Of a stretch of DNA of 64,000 bases, positions 13,107 to 54,765 are shown piece after piece (position 1 is the first letter of the stretch; every line of letters begins with the position of its first letter). The notes below the pieces were generated by a model that saw only the letters and a program-made list of their open reading frames with translations, was not told the DNA's origin and ran no database searches. Origin of the DNA: Candidatus Limnocylindria bacterium (GTDB lineage: Bacteria > Chloroflexota > Limnocylindria > QHBO01); assembly GCA_038209995.1 (NCBI GenBank), contig JBBQXD010000003.1, positions 89,079-153,078 on the forward strand, read 5' to 3'. A program made the translations under genes and the position numbers.

Positions 13107-15035
13107 GTGCTGAGACGATTCGTGACGTTGCTTGCCGGGATGGCATTGCTGGCGGGGCTGGTCGTCCCAGCCAGTTCCATCGCGCTCGCCGCAGGTGGCG
13201 CCTCGCGCCAGGTCCCGGCAGCGGGCACGACCAGCATTCGGGGCGCTGCTCCGGGAGCCGCTGGCCCTGCCCAGCCGGAGCTCCGTCAAGGTGCCGGAGC
13301 GGAATCCGGAGTGGGCAAACCATCCGGTCGCGGCAAGTTCCCACCCAAGCCGCTGAACCCGCCGGTGGTCTCCTCGAGCGCGGTTGCGCGCTCGAATCCC
13401 GAGATCCTGCTCAGCTTCGCCGGTCTCAACCACTTCGACCAGCGGACCGCCAACGGCGGCAACCAGTTCTCGCTGGAGCCGCCCGACCAGGCCCTGTGCG
13501 TGGGCAACGGCTTCAGCGTCGAGTCCGTCAACAGCGTGCTGCGGGTCTACAGCAGCGCGAGCGGCGCTCCGCTGACCGGTGTCCAGGATCTGAACACGTT
13601 CTTCAAGTACCCCGCAGCATTCAACCGCACCACCGGGTCGGTCGGGCCCGATGTCATCGACCCGGTGTGCCACTACGACCCCGACCATCAGCGCTTCATC
13701 GTCGCGGTCACCACGCTGCTCGTGAACAGCAAGGGTGACTACAACGGGCGAAACACCATCGACCTTGCCGTGTCGAACACCGGCGATCCAACGGGCCTCT
13801 GGACGATCTATCACGTTCCGGCCCAGAACAATGGGAAGCAGGGAACACCGAACCACCACTGCGACCTGGGCTTCTGCTTCCAGGACTACCCGCATATCGG
13901 TGGTGACGCGAACGGCATCTACGTCACCACGAACGAATACTCGACGTTCGGTGCCGGGTTCAGTGGCGCCCAGATCTTCGCGTTCTCCAAGGCACAGCTC
14001 GCCGCCCATTCGGCGGCCCTCACCGTCACCACCGTCGAGAACCTGAGCGTCAAGGGCATCCCGGGCTTCACCGTCTGGCCAGCGACCTCGCCGGCCGGTC
14101 AGTACGCCACGGTGGCCAACGGCACCGAGTACTTCCTCAGCACCATCGCGGGGGACGGGTCCGAGACCGGGAATCCGACCGGCACGGCGAACCGCGTCGC
14201 GCTCTGGGCGCTCACCAACACCGCCTCGCTGAACACCGCGGCGCCGGCCGTCCACCTCACGTCAGCGCTGATCAACAGCGAGAAGTACGTCTTCCCGCCC
14301 ACGGCCGACCAGAAGCCCGGGAATACGCCACTCCGCGACTGCATCAACGACACCAAGACGCCCACGCCATTCGGTAAGGGTTGCTGGCAGCTGTTCTTCG
14401 ACGTCGAACCGGCCCACAACGAGGTGCTTTCGCACCTCGACGCTGGCGACACTCGGATGCAGCAGACCTGGTACACGAACGGAATGCTGTGGGGAGCCGC
14501 CTCTACGGCCGTGAAGGTGGGCGGCGAGGTCAAGGCAGGCATCGCCTGGTTCGCGGTGCAACCATCGATCAACAGCAGCGGCCAGGTCGCTGGAAAGGTG
14601 ACTCGACAGAGTTACATGGCGCTCGCCAACAACAACCTCACATATCCGGCCATCGCCATGGGGACCAATGGCCGGGGAGTCATCGCCTTCACCGTGGTGG
14701 GCGAGAGCTACTACCCCAGCGCCGGCTACGCGACGATCACCGCCAGTGGCGCGGTGGGACCAATCCACGTGGCTGCGGCGGGCAAGGGGCCGTCGGACGG
14801 CTTCACGAGCTACAAGGCGTTCGTCGGCGATCCGCCGCGCACCCGCTGGGGTGACTACGGCGCGGCGGTGACCGACGGCTCGAGCATCTGGATCGCATCC
14901 GAGTGGATCGGCCAGAAATGCACGTACGCGCAGTACTATCCCGCGCCGCCAAGCCTCGCCGGGTTCGGCACCTGTGGCGGCACGCGGACGAGCCTCGCGA
15001 ACTGGGGTACCTACGTGACGAAGCTCACTCCGTAG
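13107..15035 (+). CDS. secreted protein, hypothetical (642 aa)
   Basis: GTG start with TAGGAGGG 8 nt upstream. Cleavable signal peptide (MLRRFVTLLAGMALLAGLVVPASSIALAAG). No recognisable catalytic motif; several Cys pairs. Confidence 0.55.
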   Translation: MLRRFVTLLAGMALLAGLVVPASSIALAAGGASRQVPAAGTTSIRGAAPGAAGPAQPELRQGAGAESGVGKPSGRGKFPPKPLNPPVVSSSAVARSNPEILLSFAGLNHFDQRTANGGNQFSLEPPDQALCVGNGFSVESVNSVLRVYSSASGAPLTGVQDLNTFFKYPAAFNRTTGSVGPDVIDPVCHYDPDHQRFIVAVTTLLVNSKGDYNGRNTIDLAVSNTGDPTGLWTIYHVPAQNNGKQGTPNHHCDLGFCFQDYPHIGGDANGIYVTTNEYSTFGAGFSGAQIFAFSKAQLAAHSAALTVTTVENLSVKGIPGFTVWPATSPAGQYATVANGTEYFLSTIAGDGSETGNPTGTANRVALWALTNTASLNTAAPAVHLTSALINSEKYVFPPTADQKPGNTPLRDCINDTKTPTPFGKGCWQLFFDVEPAHNEVLSHLDAGDTRMQQTWYTNGMLWGAASTAVKVGGEVKAGIAWFAVQPSINSSGQVAGKVTRQSYMALANNNLTYPAIAMGTNGRGVIAFTVVGESYYPSAGYATITASGAVGPIHVAAAGKGPSDGFTSYKAFVGDPPRTRWGDYGAAVTDGSSIWIASEWIGQKCTYAQYYPAPPSLAGFGTCGGTRTSLANWGTYVTKLTP

Positions 15036-15051
15036 CCTCGTCCGACCATGC

Positions 15052-15083
15052 GAGAGAGGCCGGCCGGCGTGCCGGCCTCTCTC
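15052..15083. terminator. bidirectional intrinsic-terminator-like hairpin (GAGAGAGGCCGGC / GCCGGCCTCTCTC)
   Basis: Perfect 13-bp inverted repeat with a 6-nt loop, 17 nt after the + gene stop. It overlaps the stop codon of the convergent cinA gene. Confidence 0.55.
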
Positions 15084-16215
15084 ATGTGCGCGGGGCGGTG
15101 AGCGCTCTGCGGACCGCATCCAGCGCGGCGTAGGCAGCGCGGCGCTGGCGCTGCGGGCCGCTGCCGTGGATCGAGAGCTCGACCATCGGAACACTGATGA
15201 CGCCGCTCAGCGCGACGTGAACGCGGCTTCGACCATGGACGCCTGCCTCGAGCAGCGAGAGCTGCAGCACGGCGTCCGCGAGCGGCACGGCCGCCAGCCC
15301 GCCGACGTCGAGCATGCCGCCGACATAGGTCGCGGCGCGGTCGACCACGTCGGCGCCGGCCAGGATCGCGAGCAGGGCGCCCTCGGTATCCGCCTCCCAG
15401 GAGGCGGCTGAATCGGCACCGGCGGCGCCGAGCGCGGCCAGCGCCACGGCGCCGAGCTCGTCGGCATCGGTCCCCCAGGCGTCGTCGTCGAGCGCGGCGA
15501 GGCAGCGGTCGACGAGCGCGTCGAGCGGCGCGTCATCGTCGCGTGACGAGAAGCGGAGATGCACGCCGTCGTCGCGGGCGTAGATGCCGGCCTCGATCTC
15601 GGTCCCGGGGTGCTCGAGCATGTCGCCGAGCAGATCTGCCACCCGGGACTCGCCGAGGCCCCAGGTCTTCACGGTGCGTGTGCGGAGTGGCGCGAGCGCG
15701 AGGCGCCCCCGCAGCCGAGGCACCACCTCGTCGCCCCACATGCGGCGCATCTCGGACGGCACGCCCGGCAGGAGCACGCAGACCGATCCGTCGCGGTCGA
15801 CCCACCAGCCCGATGCCGACCCGATTGGGTTGGCGAGGAGCTCCGCGGACGCGATGCGCATCGCCTGGCGGAGGTTGCTGGCAGGGAAGGCGCCGAGCCC
15901 GCGCCACCGGGCGCGGAGCGCGCGGGCCAGCTCCGGGTCCTCGGCGAGCGGCTCGCCGAGGGCGTCGGCCAGCCCCTCGCGGGTCAGGTCATCGTGGGTG
16001 GGCCCGAGGCCGCCGGTGGCGACGACGAGCACCGTCTCGGAACGCGCCATTGTGAATGCGGCCGCGATGACGGCCCGGTCGTCGGGGAGTGCCCGGATCC
16101 CGCGCAGCTCGACGCCGAGCCGCGCGAGCTCGGCGCCCAGATGCGCCGCGTTCGTGTCGACCGTCTCGCCGCGCAGGATCTCGCTGCCGATGCTGAGGAT
16201 CTGGGCGGTGGCCAT
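15082..16215 (-). CDS. cinA: CinA family protein (MoCF-biosynthesis-like N domain plus nicotinamide-nucleotide amidohydrolase-like C domain)
   Basis: N-terminal AQILSIGSEILRGETVDTNAAHLG and C-terminal CinA domain (SGGLGPTHDDLT ...). 377 aa. Confidence 0.75.
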   Translation of the reverse strand: MATAQILSIGSEILRGETVDTNAAHLGAELARLGVELRGIRALPDDRAVIAAAFTMARSETVLVVATGGLGPTHDDLTREGLADALGEPLAEDPELARALRARWRGLGAFPASNLRQAMRIASAELLANPIGSASGWWVDRDGSVCVLLPGVPSEMRRMWGDEVVPRLRGRLALAPLRTRTVKTWGLGESRVADLLGDMLEHPGTEIEAGIYARDDGVHLRFSSRDDDAPLDALVDRCLAALDDDAWGTDADELGAVALAALGAAGADSAASWEADTEGALLAILAGADVVDRAATYVGGMLDVGGLAAVPLADAVLQLSLLEAGVHGRSRVHVALSGVISVPMVELSIHGSGPQRQRRAAYAALDAVRRALTAPRT

Positions 16216-16330: not shown

Positions 16331-16370
16331 GGCCGCGCCGGCCGCGCCGGCCGCGCCGGCCGCGCCGGCC
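16331..16370. repeat. tandem 9-nt microsatellite (GGCCGCGCC) x about 4.4
   Basis: Perfect copies in the divergent intergenic region between cinA (-) and the F420 operon (+). Confidence 0.8.
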
Positions 16371-16426
16371 ACATCGGGCTACGATGGTCGCTCCGAAAAA
16401 CAGAGCGCATCTTGTTGGAGACCCGA

Positions 16427-16840
16427 GTGGCAGAGACGATCACGACGAGCACGGTCCTCGGCCCCGCACTGCGGGAGTGGCTCATCGCCGAGCTCCGGTT
16501 CCCAGTGATGGCCACCATTCGCAGCGACGGCATGCCGAGCCAATCGGTCGTGTGGTTCGACCTCGACCCGCAGGACGACAACTCAATCCTCCTCAACACG
16601 AAGGCGGGGAGGGTCAAGCATCAGCACCTGCTGCGGGACCCGCGGATCAGCCTCTGCTTCGAGGACGGCTACGACTACGTCACCCTCGAGGGGCGGGTCG
16701 AGCTCGTCGACGAGCCGGTGCAGGGCCTGCGGGTCATCCAGGACCTCGCCCGTCGCTACGACGACGATCCATCGGTCTTCGACGGCCAGCAGCGCGTCAC
16801 GATCCACATGCGCATCGAGCGCGTGATTCGGCATGACTGA
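16427..16840 (+). CDS. PPOX-class (pyridoxamine-5'-phosphate-oxidase-like) probable F420-dependent enzyme
   Basis: Split-barrel pattern (PVMATIRSDGMPSQSVVWFDLD ... SILLNTKAGRVKHQHLLRDPRISLCFEDG ... YVTLEGRVELV). GTG start with GGAGA upstream. The track starts at 16412. Confidence 0.65.
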   Translation: MAETITTSTVLGPALREWLIAELRFPVMATIRSDGMPSQSVVWFDLDPQDDNSILLNTKAGRVKHQHLLRDPRISLCFEDGYDYVTLEGRVELVDEPVQGLRVIQDLARRYDDDPSVFDGQQRVTIHMRIERVIRHD

Positions 16841-18715: not shown

Positions 18716-19314
18716 ACGAGCGCGTCCGGATCATCGTCCCGCATCGCGGCCTGGCCGCGGCGAAGACCCGCCTCGCCCCGGTGCTCGACCCCGGTGAGCG
18801 GGTTGCCCTGGCGCGCGAGCTGCTGGAGCGGGTGCTCCGCGTGGCGCGCGAGGCGGTCGACGATGTGGTGGTCATCACGCCCTCCGAGGCCCTGGCACGC
18901 GTCGTCGAGCCGCTCGGCGCGGTGGTCGTCGTGCAGCGCGGGATGGGGCTGAACACCGGGCTCGAGCAGGCGCGACGCGCCGCGGTCGAGGACGGGATCC
19001 GCCTCCTGGGCGTGCTCCACGGCGATCTCCCGAACCTCCGCGCCGATGACGTGGCGGCCCTCCTGGCGGCCGCTCCCCAGCCACGGGGCCTGGCCATCGC
19101 GCCCGATCGCACCGGGACGGGGACGAACGGCCTCGCCATGCGCCCCGTGGACGTCATCGGCTTCGCGTTCGGAGAGGGGAGCTTTGCCGCGCACCATGCC
19201 GCCGCCGACGCGGCAGGCATTCCCGTCGTCGTCGTGGACCGGTCGGGGCTCGCGTTCGATCTCGACACCCCGTCCGACCTCGCCCGCTGGCTCGAGCTCG
19301 GGGACGCGGCGTGA
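18712..19314 (+). CDS. cofC: 2-phospho-L-lactate guanylyltransferase CofC/FbiD
   Basis: RVRIIVPHRGLAAAKTRLAPVLDPGERVALARELLERVL and the later G-rich nucleotidyltransferase segments. ATGA overlap with cofD. Confidence 0.75.
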   Translation: MNERVRIIVPHRGLAAAKTRLAPVLDPGERVALARELLERVLRVAREAVDDVVVITPSEALARVVEPLGAVVVVQRGMGLNTGLEQARRAAVEDGIRLLGVLHGDLPNLRADDVAALLAAAPQPRGLAIAPDRTGTGTNGLAMRPVDVIGFAFGEGSFAAHHAAADAAGIPVVVVDRSGLAFDLDTPSDLARWLELGDAA

Positions 19315-20090
19315 CGTCGGGCTCGCTCGAGATCCTCGCGCTGGACGGGATCCCCGAGGTCCAGGCCGGCGACGACCTGCCAGCGCTCATCGCCGCGGCG
19401 GCCGGGGCCGCCGCCATCGGTCTGTCCGACGCCGACGTCCTGGTCGTCACCCAGAAGGTGGTGAGCAAGGCGGAGGGCCGGCTCGTCGATCTCGCCACCG
19501 TCGAGCCGCGGCCATGGGCGGTCGAGTTTGGCGCCCGGTGGGGCAGGGATGCGCGGCAGGTGGAGCTCGTCCTCCGCGAGTCGGCCGAGATCGTGCGGCT
19601 CGGTCCGCACGGGCTCATCATCTGCCGCACCCATCACGGCTTCGTGTGCGCGAACGCCGGCGTCGACCTCTCGAACGTTGGCACCGGTGACGCGGCAACC
19701 CTCCTGCCGGTCGACCCCGATGCATCCGCCGCCGGGATCCGCGACGGCCTGCGCGCCCGGCTGGGCGTCGCGCCGGCGATCATCGTCAGCGACTCGTTCG
19801 GGCGGCCATGGCGGAACGGGATCGTGAACGTGGCGATTGGTGCGGCGGGCATCGAGCCGCTCCTCGACCTGCGCGGGCGGCCGGACGCGGCGGGGCGCGT
19901 CATGCGCGCCACGATCACCGCGATCGCGGATCAGCTGGCGTCCGCAGCGGATCTCGTCGGCGGCAAGGTCGCGCAGCTGCCGGTCGTCATCGTCCGCGGC
20001 TACGCATACCGGCTGGGCGACAGGGGCGCCGCCGGCGCTGCGGGTGCTGCGGCGCTCGTGATGGATCGCGCCGCGGACCTCTTCCCGTAG
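19311..20090 (+). CDS. cofE: coenzyme F420-0:L-glutamate ligase CofE (FbiB N-domain homologue)
   Basis: LEILALDGIPEVQAGDDLPALI ... VLVVTQKVVSKAEGR ... IICRTHHGFVCANAGVDLSN matches CofE family motifs. 4-nt overlap with cofC. Confidence 0.8.
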   Translation: MTSGSLEILALDGIPEVQAGDDLPALIAAAAGAAAIGLSDADVLVVTQKVVSKAEGRLVDLATVEPRPWAVEFGARWGRDARQVELVLRESAEIVRLGPHGLIICRTHHGFVCANAGVDLSNVGTGDAATLLPVDPDASAAGIRDGLRARLGVAPAIIVSDSFGRPWRNGIVNVAIGAAGIEPLLDLRGRPDAAGRVMRATITAIADQLASAADLVGGKVAQLPVVIVRGYAYRLGDRGAAGAAGAAALVMDRAADLFP

Positions 20091-20170
20091 GTCGAGCACG
20101 CGTCTTCGAGGAGGGGCTCCACCGCGGACGGACGGTGGCCATCGGTCTACCAGGGACGCTCAGCATCCCT

Positions 20171-20259
20171 TCGTGACAGCGTGCCTCACATGCGCCATGT
20201 GCAGCTCGTGACAGCGTGCCTCACATGCGCCGGGTGCAGCATGTGCGTCACGAGCGACC
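20171..20259. repeat. tandem palindromic repeat element (2 x 35 nt unit plus partial), GTGAC-N7-(G/C)TCAC family
   Basis: tcgtgacagcgtgcctcacatgcgcc(a/g)(t/g)gtgcagc occurs twice in tandem, then atgtgcgtcacgagcgacc. Contains the internal palindrome CACATGCGCCATGTG. Related to the repeat at 53778-53889. Confidence 0.7.
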
Positions 20260-20293
20260 TACCCGCGGCGCGTGGACCCGCCCGGGAGGAGGG

Positions 20294-20629
20294 TCAGTTC
20301 GGCTGAAGGAAGAGGGCGACGATCTCGCCACCCTCCACGCGGAAGTTCGCCTCGACGTTCATCGGCGGCACGCCGGGCCGCATGACGGTCACCTCGGCGA
20401 TGTAGCTGCTGCCCATGTTGCGGCTGTCGTTGGTGAACATCCGGAAGCCGTCGCCGGCCCGGACGAACCAGCCGCCGACCTTGTCGCGACCGCGCAGGTT
20501 CGTCCGCTCGTCGGAGCCGGGCACGCTGATGCCGAGCACGGCATGCTCGGCGAAGAGCTCGACGGCCTTCTCGCGGCGGTCGTCGTTGATGAGCTCGAGG
20601 AACAGGTCGACGGTCTCGGTGGCTCCCAT
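20294..20629 (-). CDS. NTF2-like / SnoaL-like small protein
   Basis: 111 aa in a cone-shaped alpha+beta family pattern (VDLFLELINDDRREKAVELFAEHAVL ... EANFRVEGGEIVALF). Confidence 0.5.
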   Translation of the reverse strand: MGATETVDLFLELINDDRREKAVELFAEHAVLGISVPGSDERTNLRGRDKVGGWFVRAGDGFRMFTNDSRNMGSSYIAEVTVMRPGVPPMNVEANFRVEGGEIVALFLQPN

Positions 20630-20691
20630 GGCCGGGCCAGTCTAGCCGGAATGCGCCTCACGAGCCGGTCCGCGGCTAGACTGACCGTCCA

Positions 20692-21615
20692 ATGACACCG
20701 CTTCGCATCGGGCTGATCGGCTGGGGCACGGTCGGCGCCGCCCTCGGCGAGCTCGTGCTGCGCGGTCCGCTGCCGCTCGAGCTCGGCGTGGTGGCGGTGC
20801 GTGATTTGCGGCGACCCAGAGGTAACGCGCTCCCGGCCGACGTGCGAGTCGGCAGGCCGGATGACGCTCTGATCACCGACGTCGTGGTGGAGTTGGCCGG
20901 CGGGATCGAGGCTCCCCGGGAGTGGGCGCGGGCCACGCTGGAGGCGGGGAAGGCGTACGTGACCGCCAACAAGGCCCTCCTCGCCACCCACGGCGGCATG
21001 CTGGCGGCCCTCGCGCAGGCGCGCGGTGGGGCGCTGCTGGGCAGTGCCAGCGTCGGCGGCGGAACGCCGATGATCGAGACCGTCACCCACCTCGCCGCGA
21101 CCGGCGAGCTGTCGCGATTGCGCGGCATCGTCAATGCCACCACGACCTTCATCTGCACCGCGATGGGGGAGGGCCGCGCCTACGAGGATGCGCTGCGCGC
21201 GGCCCAGGCCGCGGGTTACGCGGAGGCCGATCCGACGTTCGACGTCACCGGTCGCGACGCCGCCCAGAAGCTCGCCATTCTGGCCTCGGTGGCCTGGGGC
21301 GAGTGGCGCGCGGAGTCCGAGGTGGCGACGTCGGGGATCGTCGGCCTCGCGGTGGCCCCCGGCGCAACGGTGCGCCTCGTTGCCGAGGCCACTCCGGAGC
21401 TGATGAGCGTGAGACCGATGGAGCTGGCGGGCGACGACCCACTGGCAACGGTGTCGGGGATCGGCAGTCTGCTGGCCGTCGAGGTGGCGGGGGCGGGCAC
21501 CTTCACGGTGAGCGGGCCCGGCGCCGGGGGGCGCGTGACGGCGGGTGCCGTCTATGCCGACCTCGCGCGGCTGGTCGCCGGGGAGCGGCCGATCCTCTTC
21601 GGGAGCGGGCGATGA
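20692..21615 (+). CDS. hom: homoserine dehydrogenase (short form)
   Basis: N-terminal Rossmann IGLIGWGTVG and catalytic-region signature AQAAGYAEADPTFDVTGRDAAQKLAILASV. Confidence 0.8.
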   Translation: MTPLRIGLIGWGTVGAALGELVLRGPLPLELGVVAVRDLRRPRGNALPADVRVGRPDDALITDVVVELAGGIEAPREWARATLEAGKAYVTANKALLATHGGMLAALAQARGGALLGSASVGGGTPMIETVTHLAATGELSRLRGIVNATTTFICTAMGEGRAYEDALRAAQAAGYAEADPTFDVTGRDAAQKLAILASVAWGEWRAESEVATSGIVGLAVAPGATVRLVAEATPELMSVRPMELAGDDPLATVSGIGSLLAVEVAGAGTFTVSGPGAGGRVTAGAVYADLARLVAGERPILFGSGR

Positions 21616-22643
21616 GCGACTGGCCGATCGTCGGCATTGCCGGCGCGCGGGGCGTGGTGGGGAGCGTCCTGTGCTCCATCCTCGCCGACGCGGGCCTGCC
21701 GGCTGCCTCGCTGCGCCTCTTCGGCCACCAGGAGGGGCACGCCGCGACCTACCGGGGCGAGGAGCTGCCGGTCCACGTCCTCGACGCGACGCGCGCGGCC
21801 GAGCTCGACGTGCTGTTCCTTGCCGTCGATGCCGCCCAGAGCCGCGAGATCATGGATGGCCCCGGCGCCGCCGTCCCGCTGGTGGTCGATAACTCGAGCG
21901 CCTTCCGCCTCGCCGAGGACGTGCCGCTCGTCGTGCCAGAGGCGAACGCGCGTGCCGCGCGCGAGCGGCGCGGCAACCTGATCGCGAATCCGAACTGCAC
22001 GACCGCCGCCGCGGTCGTGGTGCTGGCACCCCTCCGCGACGCGGCGGGACTCGCGGCGGTCGACCTCGCGTCGTACCAGGCGGTGAGCGGCGCCGGGCGA
22101 GCCGGGCTCGATGCCTTCGCGGCAGAGCGGGGGAGCGTGCACCGCGAACGAGCCGCCGACTCCCCGTTCCACGGCCGCATCGCGGATAGCGTCGTGCCGC
22201 AGATCGACGTCCTCGACGAGGCGGGCTGGACCGGCGAGGAGCGGAAGATCCATGCCGAGATCCGCAAGATCCTCGACATGCCGGACCTCGACGTGGCCGC
22301 CACGACGGTGCGGGTGGCGGTGCACACCGGCCACAGCGTGGCGCTCCACATTCGAACCGAGCGCGCCACGACGGTCGGGGAGCTCGAGGCCGCGCTGCGC
22401 GCCGCCCCGGGCGTGGAGTACCGGCCCGCGGATGGCAGCGAGCGCCATCCGATGCCGCTCGACGTCGAGGGTCGCGACCCGGTGCTGGTGGGGCGGCTGC
22501 GCGCGATCCCGGGACGTGTGGGTGGCTTCGCGCTCTGGCTGTCGAGCGACAACCTCCGTAAGGGCGCCGCGCTCAACGCGATCCAGGTCGCCGCGGCTGC
22601 CGATCCCGAGCGCTTCGGACGGCTCGTCCCACCGCCGCGCTGA
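21612..22643 (+). CDS. asd: aspartate-semialdehyde dehydrogenase
   Basis: IVGIAGARGVVGSVL (NAD(P) binding), NPNCTT (active-site Cys) and the C-terminal asd dimerisation domain. ATGA overlap with hom. Confidence 0.85.
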   Translation: MSDWPIVGIAGARGVVGSVLCSILADAGLPAASLRLFGHQEGHAATYRGEELPVHVLDATRAAELDVLFLAVDAAQSREIMDGPGAAVPLVVDNSSAFRLAEDVPLVVPEANARAARERRGNLIANPNCTTAAAVVVLAPLRDAAGLAAVDLASYQAVSGAGRAGLDAFAAERGSVHRERAADSPFHGRIADSVVPQIDVLDEAGWTGEERKIHAEIRKILDMPDLDVAATTVRVAVHTGHSVALHIRTERATTVGELEAALRAAPGVEYRPADGSERHPMPLDVEGRDPVLVGRLRAIPGRVGGFALWLSSDNLRKGAALNAIQVAAAADPERFGRLVPPPR

Positions 22644-22739
22644 CGTCGCGGCGGACTGCTCCGCGGCGCGTGATCCGAACCGTCAGCAGACGCGACCATC
22701 GGGCTATGCTGCGCGCGTTCCCGCCCGCTCAACGCAACC

Positions 22740-24395
22740 ATGCTCGGGGGTGCCCACCCAGTGCCGTCCTTCGGTGACCTTGCCGCCCAGTTCCTCGACG
22801 AGGAGCACGCCGCCAACCCGGTCCGTGCCTCGTACCTCGGCCTGAGCGACTACGACGATCAGCTCGACGACCTGTCCGCCGCAGCCATCGAGGCCGATGC
22901 TGCCCGGTCGGCGGCCTGGCTCGACCGGTTCGCCGCGCTCGGCGATGACGAGCTGACGTTCGACGAGGCGATCGACCGCGATCTCGCCGTCGCCCAGCTC
23001 CGGGAGCGCGCGATCTACCACGAGTGGGAGATCTGGCGCCGCCAGCCGGACCTCTACCTCAACCCCGGCATGCGGGGCGTCTTCGTCCTCTTCCTCCACC
23101 GGCTGCGGCCGGAGGGCGAGCTGGCAGCCGCGGCCGCCGCCCGCCTGCGGGCAGTGCCGGCAAACCTTGCCGCCGGCCGCGCGAACCTGCGACCCGCGAT
23201 GGTGTCGCTCGTCATCCTCGACCGGGCGATCAACCAGGCCCGCGCCGGCGCCCGCTACGTCCGCGACCTGCTGCCGGCCGACGTCGCCGAGGAGCATCGC
23301 GGCGACCTGGCCGCTGCCGGCGCGGAGGCGGCGCACGCATTCGAGGCCTATGCCGCCTTCCTCGAGGAGATGCGCCCGGCGGCGACCGGGGAGTGGGCGT
23401 TCGGCGAGGAGAACTACACCGCGGTCCTGCGCGACGCGGAGCACCTCGACCTCGACACGCGGGCGCTCCATCAGCGCGGCCTCGACCAGGTGGAGCTGCT
23501 GCTCGGCGAGATGCGCCGCCTCTCGAGCGATATCGCCGGCCACGACGACTGGAAGCGGCTCGTCAGCGAGCTCAACGCCGATCGCCCGGCCGACCCGGAG
23601 GCGATGCGCGTCGGGTACGAGGTATGGACCGAGCGCGCGCGCCAGTTCCTCCACGACCGCAACCTCGTCTCCTTTCCGGCCGGCGAGGAGTGCCTGGTGG
23701 TGCCATCGCCGCCCTTCCAGCGGCCCGTGATCGCGGTCGCCAGCTACGTCGCGCCGCCGCACTACGCGGCCACGTTCCGCGGCCACTTCTTCGTGCCGTT
23801 CCCACCGGATGGCGCGTCGGAGGAGGAGACCGGGAAGCGGCTCGAGTCGAACGCGTACCCGAGCATTCCCACCACCGCCGTGCACGAGGCCTACCCCGGA
23901 CATCACTGGCACCTCGCGATGGCGAAGACGAACCCCTCGCCGATGCGCGCCGAGTTCGGGACGAGCTACTTCGCGGAGGGCTGGGCCCTCTACGCGGAGG
24001 AGATGATGACGAACGCCGGCTTCTACGACGATCCGCGCCACGTCCTCTACCAGGTCGAGGCACGGCTCTTCCGCGCCGCCCGGATCGTCGTCGACACCGC
24101 CCTCCACATGGGTGAGATGAGCCACCCCGGCGCGGTCGCCTACATGCTGGCCCACAGCTCGCTCACCGAGCCGACGGCGATCGCGGAGGTCACCCGCTAC
24201 TGCTCGTGGCCGACGCAGGCCAGCTCGTATCTCACCGGCGCGCTCGAGATCGCGCGGATCCGCGACGCGTTCTTCGCCGCGCGCGGCGCCGAGGCCGGTG
24301 ATGTCGACACGCTGCGCGACTTCCATGACGCGATCGCCGGGGCAGGAACGCTGCCGATCGCGCTCGCGGAGCGGGCGGCGCTGGCCAGGGTCTGA
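22740..24395 (+). CDS. DUF885 family protein (putative metallopeptidase-like)
   Basis: DUF885 hallmark HEAYPGHHWH plus a YFAEGWALYAEEMM segment. 551 aa. Confidence 0.7.
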   Translation: MLGGAHPVPSFGDLAAQFLDEEHAANPVRASYLGLSDYDDQLDDLSAAAIEADAARSAAWLDRFAALGDDELTFDEAIDRDLAVAQLRERAIYHEWEIWRRQPDLYLNPGMRGVFVLFLHRLRPEGELAAAAAARLRAVPANLAAGRANLRPAMVSLVILDRAINQARAGARYVRDLLPADVAEEHRGDLAAAGAEAAHAFEAYAAFLEEMRPAATGEWAFGEENYTAVLRDAEHLDLDTRALHQRGLDQVELLLGEMRRLSSDIAGHDDWKRLVSELNADRPADPEAMRVGYEVWTERARQFLHDRNLVSFPAGEECLVVPSPPFQRPVIAVASYVAPPHYAATFRGHFFVPFPPDGASEEETGKRLESNAYPSIPTTAVHEAYPGHHWHLAMAKTNPSPMRAEFGTSYFAEGWALYAEEMMTNAGFYDDPRHVLYQVEARLFRAARIVVDTALHMGEMSHPGAVAYMLAHSSLTEPTAIAEVTRYCSWPTQASSYLTGALEIARIRDAFFAARGAEAGDVDTLRDFHDAIAGAGTLPIALAERAALARV

Positions 24396-24431
24396 TCCGC
24401 GCTCGGTGACCGATGCGGGTAGCATCGGTCC

Positions 24432-25235
24432 ATGGACGTGAACGGCGCGCGCCGGCGTGACAGCTGGCTGATGGACATGGACGGGGTGATCGTCCGCGAG
24501 GAGCACCTCGTCCCCGGCGCGGACCGCTTCATCGCGCGGCTCCGGGAGGCGCGCGTCCCGTTCCTCATCCTCACCAACAATTCGATGTTCACGCCACGCG
24601 ACCTCGTCGCGCGGCTCGGCCACATGGGGCTGGTCGTTGACCCCGAGGCGATCTGGACCTCGGCCCTCGCGACCGCCAAGTTCCTCGCCTCGCAGCGACC
24701 GAACGGGACGGCCTTCGTCATCGGCGAGGCGGGCCTGACGACGGCGCTCCACGAGGTTGGGTACACCCTCACCGAGACCGATCCGGACTATGTCGTCATC
24801 GGCGAGACACGCACCTACAGCTTCGAGCGCATCGCGCGCGGCATCCAGCTCATCAGCCGCGGAGCGCGCTTCATCGCCACCAACCCGGATCCGACCGGGC
24901 CGTCACCGGCGGGACCACTGCCTGCCACGGGCTCGGTGGCGGCGCTGATCTCGGCGTCGACCGGCGTGCAGCCGTACTTCATCGGCAAGCCGAATCCGCT
25001 CATGATCCGGTCCGCCCTGCGCCAGATCGGCGCGCACTCGGAGACGACGGTGATGATCGGTGACCGCATGGACACCGACATCGTCACCGGCATCGAGGCC
25101 GGACTCGAGACGATCCTCGTGCTGACCGGCATCCACGGCAGCGAGGAGGCGCAGCGCTTCAGCTACCTCCCGAGCCGCATCGTGGACTCGGTCGCCGATC
25201 TTATCGGCGAGATCGTCGACCGCAGCGACGACTGA
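24432..25235 (+). CDS. HAD-IIA family hydrolase (NagD-like sugar-phosphatase)
   Basis: DMDGVI (motif I), LTNNS (motif II) and GDRMDTDI (motif IV). A later Met (MDMDGV) is an alternative start. Confidence 0.7.
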   Translation: MDVNGARRRDSWLMDMDGVIVREEHLVPGADRFIARLREARVPFLILTNNSMFTPRDLVARLGHMGLVVDPEAIWTSALATAKFLASQRPNGTAFVIGEAGLTTALHEVGYTLTETDPDYVVIGETRTYSFERIARGIQLISRGARFIATNPDPTGPSPAGPLPATGSVAALISASTGVQPYFIGKPNPLMIRSALRQIGAHSETTVMIGDRMDTDIVTGIEAGLETILVLTGIHGSEEAQRFSYLPSRIVDSVADLIGEIVDRSDD

Positions 25236-25238
25236 CCG

Positions 25239-25697
25239 ATGCGCATCGGTACTTCGTTCCCGACCCGCCTCGCGCCGGACCGCGCGTACGCCTACCTGGC
25301 CGACTTCGCGACGATCGAGGAGTGGGATCCGTTCATCACGCACGCTGAGCGGCTCGATCCCGGACCACCACGCGTCGGCAGCCGTTACCACCTCGACGGC
25401 CGCGCCCCGATCGGCATGAGGGTCGCGCTCGACTACGTCATGGAGTCGCTCGAGCCGCCGAAGCGGATCCGGCTGCGCGGGTCGTCGGGCACTCGCTTCG
25501 ACGGCTGGGATGAGATCACGATCACCCCGGCCCCGGCCGGCGGCAGCACGATTCGCTACGATGCGGAGGTGAACCTCCACGGCGTCGGGCGCCTGGTCGG
25601 GCTCGCCATCCCGATCATGGCGCTCATCGGTCGCATCCGCGGCGGCGGCCCGCTCGACGGCATGCGGCGCCGCCTCGACGCGCTGGCGGACCGATGA
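25239..25697 (+). CDS. SRPBCC (START/Bet v1-like, polyketide-cyclase-like) family protein
   Basis: 152 aa. YAYLADFATIEEWDPFI ... helix-grip pattern. Starts 4 nt after the upstream stop. Confidence 0.6.
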   Translation: MRIGTSFPTRLAPDRAYAYLADFATIEEWDPFITHAERLDPGPPRVGSRYHLDGRAPIGMRVALDYVMESLEPPKRIRLRGSSGTRFDGWDEITITPAPAGGSTIRYDAEVNLHGVGRLVGLAIPIMALIGRIRGGGPLDGMRRRLDALADR

Positions 25698-49534: not shown

Positions 49535-51639
49535 GTGACGCCGGCGACCGCGAACCGCGGCCGGATGACGAGCAGCCGGCCGAAACCGATTGGCCGGCGG
49601 CCGATATGACTCCCCGCTCGCCCGACCCCGACCCACCGTCCGCCGATGACGACTGGGCATGGCCACGTCGCGACCTGCCTCGGGAAGAGGAGGCGGAAGA
49701 CTGGCGCCCCGCGGAGCCGTGGCGCGACAACCCCTCCTGGAACGACACCCCCAGCGACGCCCCGTTGAACCGCGATCCCGAGCCATTCTGGGTACGCGAG
49801 CCGGAGCTGCCGGAACCGCATTCGGCACCGTCCTGGGAGCGCGAGCCGGAGCCGCCGAAACCGGTAGCGGCGCCGTTGTGGGAACCCGAGCCGGAACCAG
49901 ACCCTGAGCCAGAGCCCGAACCTGAGCCCGAACCAGAACCTGAGCCCGAACCAGAACCGGAGCATGCGCCTGCGCCTGCGCCCGAGCCGGAACCGGAACC
50001 ACCGCCGGAGCCCGAGCCGGAACCGGAACCCGAACCCGAACCGGAACCAGAACCCGAGCCCAAACTGGAACCAGCGCCCGAACCGGAAGCCGAGCCAGAG
50101 CCGGAGGGCGCGCCGGAGCCGGTTGCGGAACCAGCGCCCGAGGCTCCGGTAGAGCCTGAGTCCGCGGCACCACCGACACTGGCGGTAGCTGGCGAGCCCG
50201 CGCCCGAAACTGCCGCTGAACCCGAGCCCACGCCACATGAGCCGGTGGCCCCGGAAGAGGCACCGCCCAAGCGGCCCACGTGGGAGGCGGACGTCGAATC
50301 GAAGCCGGGCTTCGCTGAACCAGCACCGGAAGCAGCAGCCGCCCATCCGACAGCGGCGCCCGCCCCGTCTCCGGTGGTCGTGCCGCCCGTCCCCGTGGAG
50401 GTAGAGGCCGCCACCCAGGCTCCCTGGTCAGCGCCGGTGGAGGACATGCCGGCAATCGAGGGTGGCCACCCGCGGATGACCTGGGATCGGCGCCGGATGG
50501 GAGAGCGCCGCAGGCCGACGACCTCGGAGCAGGCCGTGCCGTGGCTCATCGGGATCGTCCTGGCGATGGCCGGCATCGTGCTCGTCCTCCTTGCCCTCAT
50601 CTACACCTCCGAGAACGGGCACCTTACGACGGTAAGCGGGTCGCCGTCGGCGGGGTCGTCGATCGTCGTCGTGCCGAGTGAAGGCAGTGGCGCGGCGGCG
50701 GCATCCGCCTCGCCGACCGACGGCGCGAGCACGACGGCCAGTCCATCGGCCCTCGGGCCGACGTACGGCGCCCTGGAGATGATCTACCTCAGCCGCACCA
50801 TCGCCTCGGCGCCGATCTACGTGTTCCGCCGTGACTTCAGCGTCACCCAGGAGGCAGAGACCCTCGCCCGGGCCGACCAGGGCGTCGAGCAATTTGCCTG
50901 GGCGCCCGACGGCCGCATCGGCGCGGGGCTCATCTCCGGCCGCGTCCTGGCGCTCCAGCCCGGACACGCTGCCCGCGCGCTCGGAGACGGCATGGTCGAC
51001 ATCTCGTTCAGCACCGACTCGCGGACCGTGTACGCGGTCCGTGTCACCCGCAATGGCGCGAACGACAAGGCCGACGTCGTCGCGGTCGAGTGGGCAACCG
51101 GAGCCCAGCGCACCGTCGGGTCGGTGACCTATCCACATCCCCAGGTAGTGGCCGACCCGGCCCTGAAGGAGGCGCAGTTCATCGACGATGGCGGGCTGGT
51201 GCGGCTCTACCCGACGGTCGACAACCGCCTCGTGCTCTGGATCCTCGGCGCGCCGTCGACCTACCTGGTAAGCGCCGCTGGCGGCTCGCTGGCGCCGATC
51301 GCCGGCCTGCCGAAGCTGGTCTCGCCGGACGACCAGTGGACGGTGCAGGTCAAGGAGTCCAAGGGCACGACGACGCTGACGCTCGCCGACCGCGCCGGAA
51401 GCGCGCGTGCCGCGACGAGCATCACCGGCCTCGTCAGCCACATTCGTTGGGCGCCGAACGGCTCGGAGGTCGCGTTCACGCTCGGGCATACCGGCCAGAA
51501 CGGTGGCGTTGTCCAGAATCTCTACGTCTGGGACCTCGTCGACGCCAAGGCGCCGATCGAGATCACGAGCAACGGCGCCTCCTTCGGCGCCGAATGGCGT
51601 GGTGCCGCGGTAAGGTGGGTCAGTGAGCCCGCGTCCTGA
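49531..51639 (+). CDS. single-pass membrane protein with an N-terminal acidic (Glu-Pro)n low-complexity region and a C-terminal beta-propeller-like (TolB/PD40-like) domain
   Basis: About 35 EP dipeptide repeats with Trp-containing W-x-x-P-E-P motifs (aa 1-330). Basic stretch plus TM ([24 protein letters not shown]). Then about 340 aa with repeated beta-strand-rich blocks. ATGA overlap with the upstream EamA gene. Confidence 0.6.
49890..50100. repeat. hexanucleotide tandem repeat tract (GARCCN)n inside the CDS, encoding (EP)n
   Basis: gagcccgaaccagaacctgagcccgaacc ... . Near-perfect 6-nt periodicity over about 210 nt. Confidence 0.7.
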
Positions 51640-53734: not shown

Positions 53735-53777
53735 CGTGCGTGGGGGAGTTCCTAGCGCCGGTAGGCCGGCGGGCCCT

Positions 53778-53889
53778 GTCAGCCGTATGTCGTGACAGTG
53801 TGCGTCACATGCTGCGCGTGACAGCGTGCGTCAGCCGTATGTCGTGACAGTGTGCGTCACATGCTGCACGTGACAGCGTGCGTCACGAG
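53778..53889. repeat. tandem palindromic repeat element (2 x 52 nt unit plus partial), GTGAC-N7-GTCAC family
   Basis: gtcagccgtatgtcgtgacagtgtgcgtcacatgctgc(g/a)cgtgacagcgtgc occurs twice, then gtcacgag. Shares the core cgtgacagcgtgc(g/c)tcac ... gtgcgtcacgag with the repeat at 20171-20259. Confidence 0.7.
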
Positions 53890-53981
53890 GGAAGCCCGAC
53901 AGCAGGAAGAGGCCGCCTGGACGCTCGCATCCCGAGTCCACCGGCGTATGCTCGGAGACCCATGGAGGAGATGACTGACTG

Positions 53982-54638: not shown

Positions 54639-54765
54639 CCGACCGCGCCGTCTGGCCCCCTCGCGGTGCGGCCGCTCGTGGTGTGGCCCATCCTCGCCGA
54701 CGCTGCGGATCGATGGGGGCACGCCGCTCTACGTCACCGACCTCGATGGCCCGCGACGCCTGAGT

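What the first reader, a model, noticed from the sequence alone, without database searches (positions are those of the whole stretch)
20171..20259. Palindromic tandem repeat element between convergent genes (family member 1)
A 35-nt unit is duplicated in tandem and followed by a partial copy. Each unit contains GTGACAGCGTGCCTCAC and CACATGCGCCATGTG inverted repeats. It lies between cofE (+) and an NTF2-like gene (-). A second locus with the same core (cgtgacagcgtgc(g/c)tcac ... gtgcgtcacgag) occurs 33 kb away. This suggests a genome-wide REP/MITE-like element family, or reiterated operator sites for one DNA-binding protein.
Basis: seen in the sequence. Interest (0 to 1): 0.55.

Follow-up and report, generated by a model that had tools for sequence, protein, structure and literature searches.

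The report
Small palindromic intergenic repeat family
The flagged sequence is a real short hairpin-forming DNA repeat that occurs at a handful of gene-end spacers in one narrow group of uncultured soil Chloroflexota (Limnocylindria), behaves like a small inserted and locally amplified REP-like element, and is a new but ordinary example of a well-known kind of bacterial repeat.

Summary
Window 20171-20253 carries two 35-nt tandem units plus a truncated terminal unit. A second array of four 26-nt units lies at 53778-53888. Both share the core GTGACAGYGTGCSTCAC, whose full form is the 21-nt palindrome TCGTGAC-AGCGTGC-GTCACGA.

The window comes from a 'Candidatus Limnocylindria' (Chloroflexota) genome. 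The same element, with conserved tails outside the hairpin, occurs at four loci of one related MAG (CAWGUL01). One of those loci is orthologous to locus 1.

More distant relatives have empty sites. Their convergent or operon-linked genes sit 0-40 nt apart. No copy was found in about 190 kb of their DNA. A scan of 185,579 species genomes found no other multi-copy genome.

Copy number differs between relatives (1, 2, 2.4 and 4 units), and the variants are explained by slippage at microhomologies. All five independent loci lie downstream of at least one gene; none lies between divergent genes.

My best reading is a low-copy, lineage-restricted REP/MITE-like palindromic element that forms hairpins at gene 3' ends. 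It has no GTAG or CGTC tag, no transposase was seen, and there is no covariation. High genome-wide abundance is not supported. Reiterated operator sites are unlikely.

The parts
20158..20170 (+). Left tail of locus 1 (GCTCAGCATCCCT). It resembles the left tail of the unlinked MAG locus L055 (GCGTCAGCATCGGT).
20171..20205 (+). Locus 1, unit 1 (35 nt): TCGTGACAGCGTGCCTCAC followed by ATGCGCCATGTGCAGC. It contains the local hairpin CACATG-CGC-CATGTG.
20206..20240 (+). Locus 1, unit 2 (35 nt), 94% identical to unit 1. The second palindrome is degenerate here (CCGGGTG).
20241..20253 (+). Truncated terminal unit ATGTGCGTCACGA. Relative to the family consensus GCATGTGACAGCGTGCGTCACGA it lacks 8 nt (ACAGCGTG), between GTG microhomologies. 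GTCACGA (20247-20253) is complementary to each TCGTGAC upstream.
20254..20270 (+). Right tail, subfamily A (GCGACCTACCCGCGGCG). It is conserved at the same offset in L096 and L052 (orthologous locus) and in the unlinked loci L055 and L058.
53776..53789 (+). Left tail of locus 2, subfamily B (CTGTCAGCCGTATG). CTGTCA lies 8 nt before TCGTGAC (7 nt in L041).
53790..53888 (+). Locus 2 array. Four cores lie at 53792-53808, 53818-53834, 53844-53860 and 53870-53886 (26-nt period), ending in GTCACGA. It is a dimer that was duplicated as a 52-nt block. The GTCAG variant at 53830-53834 is the duplication junction.
53889..53906 (+). Right tail, subfamily B (GGGAAGCCCGACAGCAGG). It matches L041 (AGGTTGCTGACAGCACG), and its GACAG is complementary to the left-tail CTGTC.
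53735..53942 (+). A segment of about 208 nt that is absent from relatives, whose PIG-L and O-methyltransferase genes are 1-40 nt apart. The array sits inside it. The boundaries are approximate.
20091..20293 (.). Convergent spacer between cofE and the NTF2-like gene that holds locus 1. The spacer between the NTF2-like gene and the gene facing it is 141 nt with the element in L052. Relatives without the element have 14-29 nt (L107-L109, L112-L116, facing a kinase gene) or about 0 nt (L110, L111, L122, facing cofE).

Best explanation
This is a low-copy, lineage-restricted family of REP/MITE-like palindromic intergenic elements in a subclade of 'Ca. Limnocylindria' (Chloroflexota).

Anatomy (shown). 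The basic element is the 21-nt hairpin TCGTGAC-AGCGTGC-GTCACGA. It usually occurs as a head-to-tail dimer with a 9-nt ATGCWGCAY linker. Asymmetric tails of about 15-20 nt are copied with it.

Behaviour (shown). It has been inserted into spacers at gene 3' ends at different times. Locus 1 is older and shared by the clade. Locus 2 appears younger and private to the window.

Mechanism (inferred). Arrays then grow and shrink locally by replication slippage and hairpin-templated events at GTG, TGC and GTCA microhomologies, producing the 26-, 35- and 52-nt periods. How the element reaches new sites is unknown. It could be mobilised in trans by an unseen single-strand (HUH/Y1-type) or other transposase, or spread by recombination.

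Effect (inferred). When transcribed, each locus can fold into one long hairpin (predicted -14 to -51 kcal/mol). Such a hairpin would sit at the 3' end of an mRNA or between operon genes. There it could act as a barrier to read-through or to 3' exonucleases.
For: Family membership. The same core and tails occur at two unlinked window loci and at four loci on three contigs of MAG CAWGUL01. The 10-nt tail ACCCGCGCCG sits at an identical offset in unlinked L055 and L058, and 9 of 10 positions match in locus 1.

Insertion polymorphism, locus 1. The element is present in the window, L095, L096, L052 and L121. It is absent in L107-L116 and L122, whose flanking genes abut. The carriers are the window's closest relatives by hom/NTF2 nucleotide identity: 86.6% for L096 and 81% for L052 and L121, against 70-78% for the non-carriers.

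Insertion polymorphism, locus 2. The element is absent in L117-L120, where the PIG-L and O-methyltransferase genes are 1-40 nt apart.

Conservation. The core stays nearly identical while the surrounding spacer is scrambled between the window, L096 and L052.

Copy number varies: 1, 2, 2.4 and 4 units.

Placement. Of five independent loci, three are between convergent genes, two between co-directional genes (one sense, one antisense) and none between divergent genes.

Folding and assembly. Every locus folds into one long hairpin. Short-read contigs of close relatives end beside the arrays (L096, L097).
Against: Copy number is far below that of classical REPs. There are only 4 loci with exact cores in the related MAG, and no extra copy in the rest of the window.

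No transposase or RAYT was seen in the window ORFs or in the 8-kb MAG loci. This rests on inspection of translations only.

No target-site duplication or terminal inverted repeat could be defined. The insertions at both loci (about 110-208 nt) are larger than the shared element.

Hairpin stability is not significantly better than shuffled sequence (z -0.1 to -2.2). There is no covariation (105 of 500 shuffles reach the observed score).

The locus 1 units carry a stem-breaking G-to-C change.

Mobility is inferred only from presence and absence among relatives.
Confidence: 0.6

Rival explanations
1. The units are reiterated recognition sites for a sequence-specific DNA-binding protein. This could be a transcription factor operator array, or a chromosome-organisation site in the style of matS or parS. 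Dimers would bind the GTGAC/GTCAC half-sites.
For: The arms (TCGTGAC/GTCACGA) are nearly invariant, while most substitutions fall in the 7-nt centre: AGC becomes ATC, AAC or AGT. There are few sites per genome, 4 loci in the MAG. The core is conserved at the orthologous locus although the flanking spacer has diverged. From memory, the arm sequence equals that of E. coli matS (GTGACRNYGTCAC).
Against: Three of five independent loci lie between convergent genes and none lies in a divergent or promoter spacer. Unit spacings of 26, 35 and 52 nt give no constant helical phase. The neighbouring genes share no function: F420 ligase, a PIG-L deacetylase, an O-methyltransferase, glycerol-3-phosphate dehydrogenase-like subunits, an ABC-2 permease and a PLP enzyme. 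Tails of 15-20 nt outside the palindrome are copied along with it, which points to duplication of DNA rather than convergent evolution of sites. Sister lineages keep the same genes without the sites. The arm spacing is 7 nt, against 3 nt in matS.
Confidence: 0.12
2. The hairpin is above all a functional RNA element: a U-tract-independent terminator or 3'-end stabiliser. On this view it is kept by selection at particular genes, and its spread is incidental.
For: The element lies 38-81 nt downstream of a stop codon on the same strand in 5 of the 6 loci examined. It is retained downstream of the NTF2-like gene across the clade, at about 81-87% nucleotide identity in hom/NTF2. Dimer folds use G.U pairs (GCGUGC with GCGUGC) that exist only on the given strand.
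Against: No U-tract is present, and the consensus terminator scan finds nothing at either locus. In L041 the element is antisense to both flanking genes. There is no covariation and no Rfam match. Close relatives manage with spacers of 0-40 nt and no element. At locus 2 it splits a formerly tight PIG-L/O-methyltransferase junction, which looks disruptive rather than designed.
Confidence: 0.2
3. The repeat is a chance resemblance, or a local tandem duplication with no family behind it, or an assembly artefact.
For: Only two loci occur in 64 kb. The metagenome and viral scans returned only isolated matches that look like chance.
Against: The window holds 7 matches against 0.99 expected, and 0 of 100 shuffles reach that number. 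The array is identical in an independent assembly. The same extended sequence occurs in another genome at four loci, and in a further assembly, L121.
Confidence: 0.02

Closest known systems
REP / BIME / REPIN elements of Proteobacteria, including the GTAG- and CGTC-tagged REP superfamilies (Di Nocera et al. 2013, PMC3733652)
   Same: Both are short (about 21 nt) imperfect palindromes outside genes. Both concentrate at gene 3' ends and between convergent genes. Both cluster, are specific to a lineage, vary between relatives and can fold into larger hairpins. That paper notes that families range from thousands of units down to 20-100 or fewer, and that untagged REP-like families exist.
   Different: There is no unpaired GTAG or CGTC tetranucleotide next to the stem; the TC before GTGAC pairs with the GA after GTCAC. 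Units are arranged head-to-tail, an arrangement the paper reports as absent or rare for REPs. The tails are 15-20 nt rather than 3 nt. Only a handful of loci were seen per genome. No RAYT was found.
MIRU / VNTR-type dispersed minisatellites of mycobacteria (from memory)
   Same: Both are tandemly repeated intergenic units found at a limited number of dispersed loci, including operon junctions. Copy number differs between close relatives.
   Different: The units here are shorter (26-35 nt, against about 40-100 nt) and strongly palindromic. There is no evidence of small ORFs or of translational coupling through the repeat.
MITEs such as Correia, ERIC and RUP (from memory)
   Same: Both are non-coding insertions of about 60-200 nt that are present or absent at orthologous intergenic sites. 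Both carry shared sequence beyond a simple hairpin. Subfamily B has an outer inverted repeat, CTGTCA...TGACAG.
   Different: No defined terminal inverted repeats matching a known IS, no target-site duplication, and the conserved palindrome is central rather than terminal.
matS sites bound by MatP in the E. coli Ter macrodomain (GTGACRNYGTCAC, from memory)
   Same: The 5-bp arms GTGAC/GTCAC are identical, and both occur at few sites per genome.
   Different: The arm spacing is 7 nt, not 3. The units form tandem arrays and carry copied tails. MatP is confined to some Gammaproteobacteria. No MatP-like gene was looked for beyond the window.

Membership tests
REP (repetitive extragenic palindrome) family in the broad sense | A short (20-40 nt) imperfect palindrome located outside coding regions | tested here: met
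   The element is TCGTGAC-N7-GTCACGA. All seven loci lie in intergenic spacers.
REP (repetitive extragenic palindrome) family in the broad sense | Many dispersed copies per genome (tens to thousands) | tested here: not met
   The exact-core scan found 4 loci (5 units) in MAG CAWGUL01. The window has 2 loci in 64 kb, and the profile search found no more. The source genome itself could not be scanned.
GTAG- or CGTC-tagged REP superfamilies (PMC3733652) | An unpaired GTAG or CGTC tetranucleotide at one end of the stem. For CGTC families: an 8-9 bp stem, a 4-5 nt loop and a CCA tail. | tested here: not met
   The nucleotides 5' of GTGAC are TGTC, CCTC, GCTC, CTTC or GTTC, and their TC pairs with the 3' GA. 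The loop is 7 nt and there is no CCA tail.
REP/RAYT system (REPtron) | A cognate IS200/IS605-like tyrosine transposase gene flanked by the repeats | not testable with these tools
   None is evident among the window ORFs or the 8-kb MAG loci, judged by inspecting translations.
MITE | Terminal inverted repeats plus a target-site duplication, with filled and empty sites | tested here: inconclusive
   Filled and empty sites are shown at two loci. No TIR or TSD could be delimited, because the nearest empty-site relatives are too diverged.
Structured RNA family (Rfam) | A match to a curated covariance model, or covariation supporting a structure | tested here: not met
   No match at gathering score, and only chance-level hits at E of 1 or below. 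Pairing is 92%, but covariation is no better than shuffles.
Transcription-factor operator array | Sites upstream of the regulated genes, with shared regulon logic | tested here: not met
   None of the five independent loci lies in a divergent spacer and three lie in convergent spacers. The neighbouring genes are functionally unrelated.
Intrinsic terminator | A GC-rich hairpin followed by a U-tract | tested here: not met
   The consensus scan finds no terminator at either array, and no T-run follows the stem.
CRISPR array | Repeats of 23 nt or more, separated by unique spacers of similar length | tested here: not met
   The cores are 17 nt and the linkers are 9 nt and themselves repeated.

The most novel reading that the evidence does not exclude
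The 21-bp palindromes could be the recognition sites of a lineage-specific protein system rather than passive selfish DNA. One possibility is a chromosome-organising or single-strand-DNA-processing protein that uses few GTGAC-N7-GTCAC sites per genome, with the tandem arrays tuning occupancy. That would explain why the core stays essentially invariant at the orthologous locus while the surrounding spacer decays.
Probability: 0.07. Interest if true: 0.6.

Novelty: new member of a known kind. Interest (0 to 1): 0.3.

Why it matters
Small palindromic repeats have been catalogued mostly in Proteobacteria and Cyanobacteria. This family is undescribed: it has no Rfam match and no match in the held literature. 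It comes from an uncultured, soil-abundant class of Chloroflexota. Filled and empty sites are available among metagenome-assembled relatives, so its history can be traced. The practical uses are modest:
- It marks a subclade.
- It is a likely cause of contig breaks in short-read assemblies.
- At locus 2 it pushes apart two formerly adjacent operon genes, which may change their co-expression.

It does not open a new biological question.

Tried and rejected
- Exact 17-mer scan of 185,579 species genomes. It returned 94 stretches. Apart from four loci of one MAG, all are single matches, nearly all without shared context.
- Metagenome scan with the 19-mer terminal unit (4 hits) and viral scan (5 hits). 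All are isolated matches in contigs of unrelated composition, taken as chance.
- Rfam searches at gathering score and at E of 1 or below found nothing credible.
- Promoter and terminator consensus scans found nothing at the arrays.
- RNA folding gave z-scores too weak to argue for selected structure. Pair counting found no covariation.
- An nhmmer profile of the terminal unit plus tail found no diverged copies in the window or in the loci of relatives.
- I looked for shared flanks that would define a longer MITE with TIRs and a TSD. Only tails of 15-20 nt are shared, in two subfamilies.
- I considered a link between the repeat and the presence or absence of the neighbouring Ser/Thr kinase gene (a cassette-like arrangement). 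I rejected it because all four combinations of kinase and repeat exist.
- CRP/FNR, Rex, HAIR and CIRCE operators and parS/matS were compared from memory. Their spacing or sequence does not fit.
- The window's own cofE protein was not on record, and the source contig could not be fetched, so no whole-genome census was possible.

Full report
**1. The observation**

Window 20171-20240 is a 35-nt unit repeated twice: TRF period 35, 2.0 copies, 94% matches, score 126. A truncated unit, ATGTGCGTCACGA, follows and ends at 20253.

The core GTGACAGYGTGCSTCAC, with up to 3 mismatches allowed, gives 7 matches in the 64-kb window. Shuffles give 0.99 on average, and none of 100 reaches 7. Six of the seven lie in two loci, all on the + strand: five exact and one with 1 mismatch.

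The second locus, 53778-53888, has four cores at a 26-nt period. They are organised as two 52-nt copies that are 98% identical.

- cofC and cofE end at 20090 on the + strand.
- A 111-aa gene lies at 20294-20629 on the - strand. Its homologues carry the SnoaL_2/NTF2-like domain.
- Locus 2 lies between a PIG-L deacetylase gene (ends 53734, +) and an O-methyltransferase gene (starts 53982, +).

An independent assembly, L095 from GCA_020063945.1, has the identical locus 1 array. The repeat is therefore not an assembly artefact.

Two details need correcting. In locus 1 the 17-mer reads GTGCCTCAC, so its arms pair over only 4 bp. The second palindrome, CACATG-CGC-CATGTG, is intact only in unit 1.

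**2. What the unit really is**

Comparing all copies gives a conserved 21-nt perfect palindrome, TCGTGAC-AGCGTGC-GTCACGA. It usually occurs as a head-to-tail dimer joined by ATGCWGCAY.

The variants are explained by small slippage events at microhomologies:
- The terminal unit of locus 1 lacks ACAGCGTG, between GTG repeats.
- The first unit of L058 lacks GTCACATGC, between TGC repeats.
- The 35-nt unit of locus 1 has a 9-nt inverted insertion that creates its private CACATG/CATGTG hairpin.
- The odd GTCAG unit of locus 2 is simply the junction of a 52-nt tandem duplication of an ancestral dimer.

Sequence outside the palindrome is also shared between unlinked loci, in two forms:
- Subfamily A (locus 1, L096, L052, L055, L058) continues GTCACGA-RCGRNNN-ACCCGCGCCG. 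The 10-mer sits at an identical offset in L055 and L058.
- Subfamily B (locus 2, L041) is CTGTCA, then 7-8 nt, then the dimer, then GARGGNNGC, then 1-2 nt, then GACAGCA.

What gets copied is thus an oriented element of about 60-80 nt, not just a hairpin.

**3. Where else it occurs**

The window is from 'Candidatus Limnocylindria' (Chloroflexota), judging by the names attached to near-identical homologues.

An exact scan of one genome for each of 185,579 species returned 94 stretches. Nearly all are single matches with no shared context. The exception is MAG CAWGUL01 ('uncultured Chloroflexia bacterium MFD08669.bin.2.74'), which carries the element with the same context at four loci on three contigs: L041, L052, L055 and L058.

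L052 is syntenic with window 19000-25600 at about 85-93% amino-acid identity. Its dimer sits at the same place downstream of the NTF2-like gene. A further assembly, L121, has the same locus, and L096 has a single unit there.

Metagenome and viral scans gave only isolated matches that look like chance. A profile of the terminal unit plus tail found no additional copy in the window or in about 190 kb from other Limnocylindria.

**4. Filled and empty sites**

Locus 1. Relatives L107-L109 and L112-L116 have the NTF2-like gene and a convergent kinase gene only 14-29 nt apart, with no element. L110, L111 and L122 have the NTF2-like gene abutting cofE. By nucleotide identity of the adjacent hom/NTF2 region, the carriers are the window's closest relatives: L096 at 86.6% and L052 and L121 at about 81%. 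The non-carriers are at 70-78%. This fits one insertion in the ancestor of a subclade. Within that subclade the core stayed essentially identical while the rest of the spacer diverged in sequence and length.

The neighbouring Ser/Thr kinase gene is present or absent independently of the repeat, and all four combinations exist. The two are therefore unrelated.

Locus 2. All four relatives examined, L117-L120, have PIG-L and the O-methyltransferase 1-40 nt apart with no element. Alignment with L117 shows that about 208 nt (53735 to about 53942) are extra in the window. L120 comes from the same sample as L096. If both belong to one organism, the locus 2 insertion is younger than locus 1. The 98% identity of its 52-nt duplicates is consistent with that.

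**5. Placement and structure**

Of five independent loci:
- Three lie between convergent genes (locus 1, L055, L058).
- Two lie between co-directional genes (locus 2 in sense, L041 in antisense).
- None lies between divergent genes.

The neighbouring genes have no common theme.

Every locus folds into one long imperfect hairpin, from -14 kcal/mol for the L055 monomer to -51 kcal/mol for locus 2. In this 71% G+C background the z-scores are only -0.1 to -2.2.

On a seven-locus alignment, 92% of cells pair in the dimer hairpin. Covariation is no better than shuffled controls, with 105 of 500 shuffles reaching the observed score. Stem-breaking changes exist, such as G to C in both locus 1 units.

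No U-tract terminator or sigma-70-like promoter is predicted at either array. There is no Rfam match.

**6. Interpretation**

The evidence has four parts:
- An oriented element of about 60-80 nt is shared by unlinked sites in two genomes.
- Insertions of apparently different ages are seen against empty sites in relatives.
- The element is confined to spacers at gene ends.
- Unit number varies locally, and the variants are explained by microhomology.

Together these fit a small non-autonomous palindromic repeat of the REP/MITE kind that inserts rarely and then expands or contracts by slippage. The element's reality, its family status and its insertion polymorphism are shown. Its mobility mechanism and any terminator or stabiliser effect are inferred.

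It is not a member of the tagged REP superfamilies as defined by Di Nocera et al. (PMC3733652). It has no unpaired GTAG or CGTC tag, its loop is 7 nt, and its tails are long. Its units are arranged head-to-tail, which that paper reports as absent or under-represented. High copy number is not met either, with four loci in the related MAG. A cognate transposase could not be sought genome-wide.

The operator-array reading is disfavoured by placement, by irregular phasing and by the co-copied tails. It still keeps some weight (about 0.12) because the arms are more conserved than the centre and the number of sites is small. A selected RNA role (about 0.2) is not exclusive of the main reading, but nothing positive supports it.

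**7. Verdict**

It is a new member of a known kind of element, in a poorly studied phylum. Interest is modest.

Noticed in passing
window 16331-16370: A perfect 9-nt tandem repeat, GGCCGCGCC x 4.4 (100% matches). It lies in the divergent spacer between a cinA-like gene (15082-16215, -) and a PNPOx-like gene (16412-16840, +).
   Followed up: no
window 15052-15083: A perfect 13-bp hairpin, GAGAGAGGCCGGC-N6-GCCGGCCTCTCTC, between convergent genes ending at 15035 (+) and 15082 (-). It is a unique terminator-like hairpin. It shows that other convergent spacers in this genome use unrelated stems.
   Followed up: no
window 20635-20686: A 14-nt inverted repeat, GGCCAGTCTAGCCG-N24-CGGCTAGACTGACC, in the 62-nt divergent spacer between the NTF2-like gene and homoserine dehydrogenase. 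This is a candidate operator or promoter element.
   Followed up: no
window 49845-50177: A long run of 6-, 12- and 18-nt periodic repeats (GAACCC/GAGCCC). On the + strand they would encode an (Glu-Pro)n low-complexity stretch.
   Followed up: no
window 20091-20170, compared with L052 5591-6900: The window lacks a Ser/Thr protein kinase gene of about 1.3 kb that sits between cofE and the NTF2-like gene in L052, L112-L116 and L121. L107-L109 have a convergent ORF at that position that runs off the contig and was not annotated. Only the kinase's upstream leader seems to remain in the window. L110, L111 and L122 lack the kinase too.
   Followed up: partly
window 54639-54765, compared with L117 2451-3605 and L119 10720-11787: Relatives carry an Orn/DAP/Arg decarboxylase gene directly after the O-methyltransferase. 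The window goes straight to the convergent histidine-phosphatase gene.
   Followed up: no
L097 position 1 (= window 53928); L096, end of the contig lying upstream of the element (33 nt before the unit): Short-read contigs of the same or closely related strains end 33-40 nt from the arrays. This suggests the repeats break assemblies.
   Followed up: partly
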